64,000 bases of DNA from NCBI GenBank assembly GCA_012295275.1, contig CM022673.1, forward strand, positions 13,702,001 through 13,766,000, given 5' to 3'. A program made the position numbers and the translations under genes. Position 1 is the first letter of the stretch; the number at the start of each line of letters is the position of its first letter. The DNA comes from Chrysomallon squamiferum. Its lineage: Eukaryota; Animalia; Mollusca. This document shows, piece after piece, positions 1,294 through 19,132 of this stretch. Below the pieces are notes generated by a model, which saw only the letters and a program-made list of their open reading frames with translations, was not told the origin of the DNA and made no database searches.

Positions 1294-4200
1294 ATGACGT
1301 CACCAATTCTATTTGTGTTTTTGATTGGATGTTTAATAATTTACCAACATGGAATAATGGCCAAAATGGTAGGTAAACCTTTATAATTAAATAATTAGGT
1401 ATGACTAATGTTTTAAATAAATGGATGTTAATCATAAAATTGATAGTACCCGTTGTTAAATAACTATATAAATTATTTTAACATAACATATTATTGACAT
1501 TAAATAAAACATTAATAACTAACTGTAAACTATAAAATTAAATAATTAGGTATGTAAATAACTAATTCAGGGGACAAGTGTTAAAATGGATACATCAAAA
1601 CCTTTTTTAAATAGTAATAAATTCATGTTGTTAATGATTAATTAAAAAAAAAAAAACACCATGAGCTTGTAGCACAGTCAATTGAATGTAAGATATCAAC
1701 ATTTTAAAAATAATACTTTCACAAAGAGACAAATCAACCCTTTAATAGGAGACAGTCTTGTTTGTTTTGATGATGGTTGTCAGACCTTCAGATTAAAATA
1801 GTATTCTCTTTTTAAATAAATTAAAATACTTTTTTTTTTTTTTTAATGTAAACACTTGGTAAACCAGTTTTGTCTTTCATAAGTTATATAAAACTTCGAA
1901 TAAGCAATTTTAAAATATCAACTATTTCTATATATACATATATTTATAGAGAACCTGGCTGAGCGACGTATGACTAAATATTCTATATCGGGTCACACTT
2001 ATATTTAAAGATTCAGTGTCTAGCCTTTTGGTACATTTGATTTGTTTTTACACGTAATTTTGTTGACGTCTGCTAATTTGTTATCGTCTGCAGGACACGG
2101 GTGACGAGAGCGAGCAGGAGGGGGGATCCCCAGAACTGAAGAAACAACTGGAACAACTTGAACACAGCGTCGACAAGTCAACATTTTAAAAATAATCTCT
2201 CTCTCTCTCTCTCTCTCTTGTCTCTTTTGATGATGGTTGTCTCCTCTCTCTCTCTCTCTAAAATACTTTTTTTTTTTTTTGTACGTGGTAAATCTCTTAA
2301 TAAGTCTATATAAAACTGACGAACTCTCTTTCTATCTCTCTTTCTATATATATATATATATATATATACACCTGGCACATACATATACATATATATATAT
2401 ATATATATATATATAAATATCTATATCTACACATTTTGGTATATTTGATTTGTATGTATGTAATTTTGTTGACGTATTTGTATGTATGTATGTATGTATG
2501 AATGAATATGTCTTCATACCTCTCACTGTCTGTCTTGGTCTCTCTGATGTAAGTTTCTGTATAATAAAATATAGATACAAAGTTTATGTCAAAGGGTTTA
2601 CAATATTCCAAGCAACGACAGGAGTAGATTTCATTCTTTTTTAAACAATAAGTAGTAACAAATAGTTTTTGGACGTAATAAAAATAACATTAAATAAAAA
2701 CTCTTTCATTCTTTGCAGAATTTTTCTGCTCACTGAATACGGTTTATAACAGTTTGTAACAAATATAAACTTTCCGTTCTTTCTTACTAGTTGGCATTAA
2801 TTAATTAATTAACCGGTTAATTATATAGTTATTTATTTATTTATTATTTTATTATTTTAAGGCATCAAAAATACTATTGATATGTAAACTAAGATCAAAT
2901 TATTATTATTATTATTATTATCATTATTATTATTATTATTATTAATGTAATGTAAACGCGTGATTAATATGTATTCGGAATTTTTCGGAACTGAATAGAT
3001 CGTTTATACTCGTAAGTTCCGAAACAGTTGCCCTGGATTGTTTGTTTTTTTTCTTTTCAGAATCATCAAAGTTAGATGAAAAGGTTATAAATCGCCAATG
3101 TTCACTACATAAAAGCCAGTTAATATTACAAAACACAATTATTTGTGAAAATCTGTCATTTTCAGAAAGTTATCAATAAATATCGCCTGTCAGTGAAAGG
3201 CTGAATCATTAAATTACCGTCGTGTTATTTATTTTGATAATTACGTTTACGTCAATTTAGATAAATTTTAAAATAAAATAAAAATAAAAAGATAAAGAAA
3301 TAAATAAAAGAAAAGCTGCTATGCGCATTTAATTATATCAAGAAATTCTTTTATGTTTTAATTATTTTACTCTATGGTTACATATTACGTAATAATATCA
3401 AGAAAACGTCTTAAGCAAATAGTCTGACGTCATACCAATTTTTTTGATAATACTGACGTTATGATTAAACTTAGTAACCGAACATGTCATAATACAGTTC
3501 ATGAATACTGAGGATATCTTGATACATCTGACGCTGATGACCTCACAATTACATTTGATAACCGATGACGTCACAATATGTAATTTAATGATAGTTTATA
3601 TTTTTGATATAATTTCAGCTGTTTACTTTCTTTCTTGAGAAACAGTTAAGGTTAGCTGTAAGTATCAAATAACTGGGACAGTCAGTATCTTTGAAGTACA
3701 ACAAAATGTAACAGTATTATTTTTAGCATTACAAGATGCACGCGCTAACACATGTAAGTTTGATCGAAACAGGCGTCATCATCTGACGATGGTTCAGGAG
3801 AAGAAGAAGAAGAGAGAGAGACACGAGATGGTTCAGGGGACGAGGACGAAGCAGAGACTGATGGTTCAGGGGACGAGGACGAAAGAGATTCAGACAGCTC
3901 AGCGGACCAGGACGAGGCAGAGACTGACAGCTCAGGGGACGAGGACGAAAGAGACTCAGACGGCTCAGGGGACCAGGACGAAGCAGTGACTGACGACTCA
4001 GGGGACGAGGAAGTAAGAGATTCAGATGGTTCTGGGGATGAAGATGACAGTAGTGAAGAGACCGAGAAAGAGGTAGAATTAACATTATCTCGCTGTTACT
4101 GCGAAATATTTCAGACAAGGCGTCATCGTATCAGAACTGTTAATATCTCTTAATTCTTAGTCCACGAAACATTAGATTTTACTAACACGATCCAGTAACC

Positions 4201-19132: not shown

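What the first reader, a model, noticed from the sequence alone, without database searches (positions are those of the whole stretch)
1294..19132. Single-chain secreted 'sensor-protease': astacin fused to ApeC, CUB, kringle, two ShK, two sushi, a C-type lectin domain and an unassigned C-terminal domain
Seen: all domains splice in phase into one ~1320-aa protein with an intact HExxHxxGxxH motif, Met-turn and RRKR activation site. Known: ApeC domains bind bacterial peptidoglycan in amphioxus ALP proteins, and CUB, sushi, kringle and CTLD modules are typical of complement- and coagulation-type serine-protease cascades. Inference: this is a lineage-specific recognition-coupled metalloprotease (mucosal immunity, symbiont control, or shell/egg-coat remodelling) in which an astacin replaces the usual serine protease. 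I know of no functional characterisation of this architecture.
Basis: partly seen in the sequence, partly recalled or inferred. Interest (0 to 1): 0.8.

Follow-up and report, generated by a model that had tools for sequence, protein, structure and literature searches.

The report
Widespread mollusc multi-domain zinc protease
This is a real, spliced mollusc gene for a predicted secreted zinc protease carrying a long chain of binding modules; the same design occurs in many snails and bivalves and was already reported from limpet foot mucus, so it is likely an ordinary member of a known but still untested family.

Summary
As assembled it is not all in phase: the first sushi exon has one extra base. 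Spliced contigs from two samples lack it, so it is very likely an assembly error. The architecture is not lineage-specific: collinear homologues occur in gastropods and bivalves. It is in print as limpet pedal-mucus protein P-vulgata_14, with an antibacterial role proposed (PMC7333891), and five of my homologues sit by the 'Group 8' label among mollusc ApeC proteins (PMC9585378). No biochemistry was found. Added here: the C-terminal domain is predicted to be a jelly-roll most like the Cwp84 lectin-like domain (Z 11.2) and occurs in up to four copies; the propeptide has seven acid-flanked Ser-Gly sites, resembling glycosaminoglycan attachment sites, and no FxGD switch was found; ApeC lacks all three DXED motifs and the lectin domain lacks EPN/QPD/WND. 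Best reading: a furin-activated mucus protease whose modules tether it rather than sense. New member of a known kind; interest 0.3.

The parts
839..914 (+). TATA-like box at about 839 and probable non-coding first exon ending at donor 914
   Evidence: sequence only; the ATG at 1294 directly follows an acceptor AG; inferred
1294..1368 (+). Coding exon 1: start codon and hydrophobic signal-peptide-like segment
   Evidence: signal peptide judged by eye
2094..2168 (+). Propeptide exon; 3' end uncertain
   Evidence: 39% over 28 aa to the Gigantopelta orthologue, E 0.013; only weak donors
3773..4072 (+). Acidic propeptide repeat exon (33-bp unit) with seven D-x-S-G-D/E sites
   Evidence: the orthologue has six G-S-G-E sites in a different repeat unit; acceptor uncertain
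4873..4969 (+). RRKR furin-type site and start of the astacin domain
   Evidence: 73% to orthologue
5660..7930 (+). Astacin (M12A) domain, exons 5660-5798, 6218-6275, 6787-6892 (zinc motif), 7266-7351 (Met-turn), 7813-7930
   Evidence: Pfam PF01400; 63-81% to orthologue per exon; family alignment
8406..8531 (+).
   Evidence: six-Cys pattern, 69% to orthologue; no Pfam hit
8970..10657 (+). ApeC domain, exons 8970-9230, 9736-9942, 10523-10657; 8 Cys, no DXED motif
   Evidence: PF16977; motif count
11206..12449 (+). CUB domain, exons 11206-11315 (GC donor), 11686-11804, 12328-12449
   Evidence: PF00431 fragments; 61-73% to orthologue
12820..13672 (+). Kringle, exons 12820-12952 and 13554-13672
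   Evidence: PF00051
14027..14161 (+). First ShK-like module, four Cys only
   Evidence: no ShK hit; position and Cys pattern; joint 14161-14414 in X8 and X9
14414..14588 (+). Sushi 1; the window has one extra base at 14568/14569
   Evidence: PF00084
15172..16171 (+). C-type-lectin-like domain, exons 15172-15328 and 15930-16171; lacks EPN/QPD/WND
   Evidence: weak Pfam hit; junction seen as a loose end in X8; motifs
16676..16810 (+). ShK module 2
   Evidence: PF01549, E 4.1e-06
17451..17630 (+). Sushi 2
   Evidence: PF00084, E 2.5e-07
17877..19132 (+). C-terminal unnamed domain of about 160 aa, exons 17877-18078, 18540-18828, 19124-19132 (stop); predicted jelly-roll beta-sandwich
   Evidence: matches the family profile, iE 5.2e-57 (one window exon is in that profile); fold predicted on the Lottia homologue

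Best explanation
The gene encodes a member of a family of astacin-type zinc proteases shared by snails and bivalves, which is predicted to be secreted, likely switched on by furin-type cutting at RRKR, and likely works in surface mucus, where its chain of non-catalytic modules would hold it on glycoproteins and trapped material that it then cuts. Shown by sequence or calls: exon order, intact zinc, Met-turn and family-glutamate motifs, in-frame splicing from the first ShK-like exon into the lectin domain, and family membership. Inferred: secretion, furin activation, proteolytic activity and the mucus location (from the limpet protein only). Also inferred: ApeC, CUB, kringle, sushi, the lectin-like domain and the C-terminal jelly-roll act as tethers or exosites, as accessory domains do in other multidomain astacins (own knowledge), not as a ligand-triggered switch. 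Mucus turnover and clearing of trapped microbes are both plausible outcomes of this mechanism.
For: Catalytic motifs match the astacin definition in PMC9848320. The Gigantopelta aegis orthologue is 72% identical over 631 aa of astacin-to-kringle and groups with the window protein at 100/100. 15 of 26 long homologues scanned carry Astacin+ApeC+CUB+Kringle, and 7 of 26 also Sushi+Lectin_C. Several align collinearly over nearly the whole model at 31-34%. P-vulgata_14 has the same domain list and was detected by mass spectrometry in bulk pedal adhesive mucus of three limpets (PMC7333891). The C-terminal domain's best structural match is the Cwp84 lectin-like domain, Z 11.2, rmsd 3.0, 139 aligned, with CBM-type domains further down. 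The missing lectin motifs and DXED motifs fit tethering better than specific sensing.
Against: No tissue or activity data for this gene. The mucus location rests on one paralogue-level relative in a limpet, whose in situ hybridisation gave no specific pattern among those reported. The tree leaves the window clade's relation to Patella members open, and molluscs carry 2-3 paralogues that may differ in role. ApeC proteins lacking all DXED motifs still bind Lys-type peptidoglycan (BgACP1, PMC9585378; ACP5, PMC8361754), so motif loss does not exclude sensing. The top fold matches (Z 11.2, 11.0, 10.6) are tied between a lectin-like domain and phage structural proteins, and a shared fold shows no function. 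The EXXRXDRD motif is only partly kept and no FxGD switch was found.
Confidence: 0.55

Rival explanations
1. Recognition-coupled immune protease (first reader; also Kang et al. 2020 for P-vulgata_14): ApeC binds bacterial peptidoglycan and aims or activates the astacin against microbes or symbionts.
For: All tested short ApeC proteins bind Lys-type peptidoglycan, including two lacking all DXED motifs. All 8 ApeC cysteines are kept, and the orthologue's ApeC model matches other ApeC models at TM 0.94. ShK-astacins are reported mostly from barrier epithelia (PMC9848320).
Against: Binding was shown only for short-form ApeC proteins, which do not kill microbes. 20 of 21 family ApeC domains have no strict DXED, against 40 of 94 other ApeC hits. 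The lectin domain lacks EPN/QPD/WND. An RRKR site suggests activation in the secretory pathway, not on ligand contact (own knowledge).
Confidence: 0.28
2. Shell, scale or egg-coat matrix-remodelling enzyme: the very acidic propeptide and the accessory modules place it in a mineralising or structural matrix.
For: The modelled propeptide is 44% Asp+Glu. PMC9585378 notes that groups 8 and 9 consist of domains typical of extracellular and matrix proteins. The next gene downstream encodes a secreted Gly/Asn/Met repeat protein.
Against: The acidic part would be cut off at RRKR. A shell-less slug (Elysia) has a family member, and an octopus protein is listed in the same tree block. Being neighbours shows no shared function.
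Confidence: 0.12
3. The locus is a truncated or null allele (stop at aa 899), or two separate genes.
For: The window frame stops after sushi 1. The Gigantopelta orthologue model ends at 914 aa, just after the first ShK-like module. DNA runs X1 and X2 did not cover the site, and the supporting contigs have depth of only about 4-6. No RNA evidence was obtained for junctions upstream of exon 14027.
Against: Two samples give spliced, in-frame contigs across ShK-like 1, sushi 1 and the lectin domain. Junctions from astacin to ShK-like 1 align with the orthologue as one continuous match. Full-length single-chain homologues exist in many species.
Confidence: 0.05

Closest known systems
P-vulgata_14, limpet pedal-mucus protein (Kang et al. 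2020, PMC7333891)
   Same: [quoted passage not shown]
   Different: That sequence is partial (1113 aa) and one ShKT was called. The paper's table names no EGF or C-terminal domain and no Ser-Gly repeat propeptide. I could not fetch it, so orthology was not tested; two Patella vulgata family members are 36-37% identical in the core.
Mollusc ApeC-containing proteins, group 8 (Li et al. 2022, PMC9585378)
   Same: Complex ACPs of more than ten domains, present in gastropods and bivalves; five of my homologues (XP_041366864, XP_041366865, XP_009047393, XP_034311325, XP_005092781) stand in the tree block by the Group 8 label.
   Different: The window's closest orthologue XP_041365770 is not in their list. 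No group 8 member was tested there. The group label was read from PDF text; Figure 1B was not seen.
Gigantopelta aegis XP_041365770 (LOC121380846, uncharacterised)
   Same: Orthologue: 72% over the core, same exon-level blocks, G-S-G-E repeats in the propeptide, no DXED.
   Different: Model ends at 914 aa after ShK-like 1; different repeat unit in the propeptide.
Multidomain astacins (BMP1/tolloid, meprins, ShKT-astacins; PMC9848320)
   Same: Signal, propeptide, M12A domain, then CUB/EGF/ShK-type accessory modules; best solved relatives of the orthologue's catalytic domain are meprin beta and hatching enzymes.
   Different: ApeC is not mentioned in that review (0 occurrences); no FxGD motif was found in the propeptide here; EXXRXDRD is degenerate.
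Cwp84 lectin-like domain (PDB 4ci7; PF18560 'Lectin_like' taken by name to be this domain, recalled) and CBM32/F-type-lectin jelly-rolls
   Same: Predicted fold of the C-terminal domain: Z 11.2, 139 residues aligned; PF18560 is the nearest named Atlas cluster at 0.88, a lead only.
   Different: 8% identity; no sequence-level hit in Pfam or PDB; phage capsid and tail domains score as well; ligand unknown.

Membership tests
Mollusc astacin-ApeC mosaic proteins (P-vulgata_14 type / ACP group 8) | Astacin, ApeC, CUB, kringle, sushi, C-type lectin, ShK in one chain and in this order | tested here: met
   collinear alignments
Mollusc astacin-ApeC mosaic proteins (P-vulgata_14 type / ACP group 8) | Homology over most of the length to proteins listed by the Group 8 label | tested here: met
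   P0022 31% over model aa 141-1299, P0064 34% over 251-1295, P0004 34% over 330-1297; accessions
Mollusc astacin-ApeC mosaic proteins (P-vulgata_14 type / ACP group 8) | ApeC domain falls in group 8 of an ApeC tree that includes the other eight groups | not tested
   my tree held family members only, with no outgroup
Mollusc astacin-ApeC mosaic proteins (P-vulgata_14 type / ACP group 8) | Protein present in mucus | not testable with these tools
   shown only for the limpet protein (PMC7333891)
Astacin (M12A) catalytic domain | HEXXHXXGXXH followed by the family glutamate | tested here: met
   HETAHSLGLLH-E; PF01400 above cut-off
Astacin (M12A) catalytic domain | SIMHY-type Met-turn with Tyr ligand | tested here: met
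   SMMHY
Astacin (M12A) catalytic domain | EXXRXDRD after the zinc motif | tested here: inconclusive
   E and terminal RD kept; R and first D replaced
Canonical animal pro-astacin (aspartate switch) | FXGDI motif in the propeptide | tested here: not met
   absent from the window model and from 13 of 13 homologues checked; the window's propeptide exons are partly unresolved, so this rests mainly on the homologues. Not filed as a canonical aspartate-switch zymogen.
ApeC domain | About 200 aa, eight conserved Cys, PF16977 above cut-off | tested here: met
ApeC domain | Three 'relatively conserved' DXED motifs | tested here: not met
   0 of 3; also lost in accepted members BgACP1 and ACP5, so not a strict criterion
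Peptidoglycan-recognition ACP | Binds Lys-type peptidoglycan | not testable with these tools
   needs a binding assay
Ca-dependent sugar-binding C-type lectin | EPN or QPD plus WND motifs (motifs recalled) | tested here: not met
   none found; filed only as C-type-lectin-like fold
Cwp84-type lectin-like / CBM jelly-roll (C-terminal domain) | Fold match standing clear of unrelated folds, plus sugar binding | tested here: inconclusive
   Z 11.2 tied with phage proteins at 11.0 and 10.6; Foldseek best E 0.0029; predicted on a homologue; binding untested
Proteoglycan core protein (propeptide) | Ser-Gly flanked by acidic residues in a secreted protein | tested here: met
   7 sites; criterion from PMC2063922
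Proteoglycan core protein (propeptide) | Attached glycosaminoglycan chains | not testable with these tools
   needs glycoproteomics

The most novel reading that the evidence does not exclude
In this snail lineage the zymogen is itself a proteoglycan: a repeat propeptide with six or seven glycosaminoglycan chains replaces the aspartate switch and parks the latent enzyme in the mucus gel until it is cut at RRKR; and the family's C-terminal module is an unnamed animal lectin domain with a Cwp84-like fold, multiplied up to four times in some gastropods, that steers the enzyme to specific glycans of mucus or bacteria.
Probability: 0.2. Interest if true: 0.62.

Novelty: new member of a known kind. 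Interest (0 to 1): 0.3.

Why it matters
The finding itself is ordinary for molluscs. What is worth keeping is that a conserved gastropod-and-bivalve protease family with a protein-level foothold in limpet mucus has, in the papers searched, no biochemical test, and this analysis gives three specific handles: an unnamed C-terminal domain with a confident predicted fold and variable copy number, a propeptide without the usual latency motif, and candidate glycosaminoglycan sites shared with the Gigantopelta orthologue. If the domain is a lectin, it would name a new animal glycan-binding module. It also flags a one-base assembly error that would make annotation pipelines truncate or split this gene.

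Tried and rejected
No whole genome is held for this window, so paralogues in this species were not counted. A word-indexed homologue search with the last large exon found nothing (17 candidates, 0 at E 0.001); weak evidence, overturned. No RNA holder was listed as such; X8 and X9 were recognised as spliced only by laying them. Read laying on the 5' half of the gene was not obtained, so the propeptide exons and the junctions upstream of 14027 lack RNA support. The weak donor at 14578 was considered as the true splice and rejected. Candidate mini-exons at 2719, 3061 and 3727 gave no phase-consistent path with strong sites and were left out. Pfam (7 members, no hit above cut-off) and PDB sequence search (best E 0.27) did not name the C-terminal domain. 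A literature search by accession numbers matched only unrelated numbers. A search for astacin prodomains with chondroitin attachment found 0 papers. Huang et al. 2014 (PNAS) is not held; Li et al. 2021 (doi 10.1016/j.ympev.2020.107009) was seen only as a reference and may already draw this architecture. Three look-ups of earlier scan findings returned nothing. The tree has 8 of 19 inner branches open and no root, so no donor or order of duplications is claimed. No complex prediction was run: there was no specific partner to test.

Full report
OBSERVATION. The window is intron-rich, microsatellite-rich animal DNA of about 30% GC. From splice-site listings I modelled 27 coding exons between 1294 and 19132; all 26 acceptors are AG, 25 donors are GT and one is GC (11315). 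Pfam on 22 single exons recovered Astacin, ApeC (2 exons), CUB (2), Kringle (2), Sushi (2), ShK (1) and a weak Lectin_C; 11 of 22 had no family or only an unrelated weak one. The zinc motif HETAHSLGLLH-E, the Met-turn SMMHY and RRKR are present.

THE PHASE PROBLEM. In the window, sushi 1 (14414-14588) ends in phase 2 at its strong donor and the frame stops at aa 899; a weak donor at 14578 would rescue it at the cost of the last cysteine. Of 11 runs listed I laid 4 on 13930-15700. X8 and X9, labelled 'DNA?' by the tool, give contigs that join 14161 to 14414 across GT..AG and continue from 14587 to 15171 (equivalent to 14588/15172), so they are inferred to be RNA-derived. X8 lacks one base at 14569; in X9 the contig resumes at 14569 after loose letters that end at 14567, that is without 14568. 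Both restore the frame. The simplest reading is that the assembly merged two alleles into one extra base. Limits: one contig per run, depth about 4-6, both runs from one study, some X8 contigs run into introns, and DNA runs X1 and X2 did not cover the site. An X8 contig leaves 15328 into the first bases of exon 15930; it is 1176 bases long, which fits the 1087 bases to the stop, but its later junctions were not displayed. The corrected model is 1302 aa. No RNA evidence was obtained upstream of 14027. There, support comes from the orthologue, which aligns as one match from the propeptide to ShK-like 1 (64%; 72% over the 631-aa core). The propeptide junctions between 2094 and 3773 are unresolved; 2259-2475 is a 70% copy of 1822-2069, possibly an assembly fault.

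WHAT IT IS. A full HMMER search with the first ApeC exon gave 225 hits, 150 listed. I chose 26 of them, mostly the longest: 15 of 26 carry Astacin+ApeC+CUB+Kringle and 7 of 26 also Sushi and Lectin_C. P0021, P0005, P0022, P0026 and P0037 align over about 1150 of 1299 model residues at 31-34%. Of 20 proteins looked up, 18 carry a name, all gastropods or bivalves: Gigantopelta, Haliotis, Lottia, Patella, Babylonia, Aplysia, Elysia, Crassostrea, Ostrea, Pinctada, Argopecten, Potamilus, Sinanodonta (also 54). Gigantopelta has three paralogues. In a tree of 22 family cores the window protein pairs with Gigantopelta XP_041365770 at 100/100; deeper relations are open and there is no root. The organism is therefore likely a gastropod related to Gigantopelta (inference).

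WHAT IS IN PRINT. Kang et al. [quoted passage not shown] Li et al. 2022 (PMC9585378; passages, one discussion section and the supplement text read, Figure 1B not seen) sort 130 mollusc ApeC proteins into nine groups; groups 8 and 9 have more than ten domains, and five of my homologues plus a Patella and an Octopus entry stand by the Group 8 label. That the Patella entry QKY77478 is P-vulgata_14 is my inference. The astacin review PMC9848320 (passages) does not mention ApeC. Searches found no biochemical study of the family; subscription papers, including Li et al. 2021, were not searchable.

MOTIF TESTS. Astacin: zinc motif, family glutamate and Met-turn are met; EXXRXDRD is partly kept; FXGDI is absent from the model and from 13 of 13 homologues checked, so latency likely differs from the aspartate switch. 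Propeptide: 44% Asp+Glu, with seven D-x-S-G-D/E sites; the orthologue has six G-S-G-E sites in another repeat unit, while the other 12 homologues checked have 0-1. These meet the sequence rule for xylosylation quoted in PMC2063922 (passages); modification is untested. ApeC: all 8 Cys kept, 0 of 3 DXED; 20 of 21 family domains have no strict DXED against 40 of 94 other ApeC hits (37 of 152 proteins could not be cut and were dropped). Against reading much into this, BgACP1 and amphioxus ACP5 lack all three motifs and still bind Lys-type peptidoglycan, and the motif's function is stated to be unknown. Lectin domain: no EPN, QPD or WND (motifs recalled). The kringle lacks the acidic pair that I recall for lysine-binding kringles (by eye).

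THE UNASSIGNED DOMAIN. A profile from 6 homologues and one window exon finds it once in the window model and in most members, three times in P0005 and P0026 and four times in P0029. Pfam and PDB sequence searches do not name it. AlphaFold2 on the Lottia copy with a 21-row alignment gave pLDDT 89.6, pTM 0.87, almost all beta. Among 48,161 chains the best matches are the Cwp84 lectin-like domain (Z 11.2, rmsd 3.0, 139 aligned), a cyanophage capsid chain (11.0), a mycobacteriophage tail-tip chain (10.6), then esterase N-terminal domains (9.3, 9.1), PHR domains, F-type lectins and CBM32 at Z 6-7; Foldseek had nothing under E 0.001. The ESM Atlas gives unnamed eukaryote clusters at 0.95, with annelid and sponge records, and PF18560 Lectin_like as the nearest named set at 0.88, a lead only. 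It is a jelly-roll; sugar binding is a hypothesis.

MECHANISM. Best (0.55): a secreted, furin-activated astacin held in surface mucus by its accessory modules and cutting mucus proteins and trapped material; only sequence features and family membership are shown. Rivals: peptidoglycan-directed immune protease (0.28), shell or egg-coat matrix enzyme (0.12), null allele or two genes (0.05).

VERDICT. Real gene, observation partly confirmed, interpretation partly supported. New member of a known, catalogued but untested mollusc family. Interest 0.3; the proteoglycan-propeptide plus new-lectin reading has probability about 0.2 and would merit about 0.6.

Noticed in passing
window 21063-21000 and 20813-20125, minus strand: Two-exon gene tail-to-tail with the protease: signal-peptide-like exon with a strong donor, spliced in phase to a 21-bp repeat exon encoding a Gly/Asn/Met-rich chain (86 G, 56 N, 43 M in 205 aa), about 250 aa in all; no Pfam hit. 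Resembles repetitive shell or matrix proteins (recalled).
   Followed up: partly
window 14568-14569: One extra base in the assembly where two RNA-derived contigs each lack a different one of two adjacent bases; likely two alleles merged.
   Followed up: yes
window 2259-2475 versus 1822-2069: 70% copy of the preceding intron mixed with microsatellite right after exon 2; possible misassembly or decayed duplication that hides the true donor.
   Followed up: partly
window 3727-3772: Exon-like 27 bases with a strong donor only 19 bases before the acceptor of the acidic exon; too short for an intron and out of phase.
   Followed up: partly
window 11315: GC-AG intron within the CUB domain; required by phase and supported by continuous alignment to the orthologue.
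   Followed up: yes
window 14027-14161: First ShK-like module has lost its outer cysteine pair; it has a Lys-Tyr pair at a spacing I recall for ShK-type dyads, but the orthologue does not keep it, so probably chance.
   Followed up: partly
P0009, P0017 (Ostrea, Pinctada): Bivalve members with a duplicated ApeC domain inside the same architecture.
   Followed up: no
window about 21675-25005, plus strand: Exon-like frames of an unnamed gene; no convincing Pfam hit.
   Followed up: no
window 34118-34372 (+), 52593-52814 (-), 55411-55809 (+), 63391-63678 (-): Cys-rich three-finger/activin-receptor-like exon (weak, E 0.034), CFAP74/PapD-like Ig exon, Longin-domain exon, and CCDC47 exon: ordinary neighbours.
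   Followed up: no
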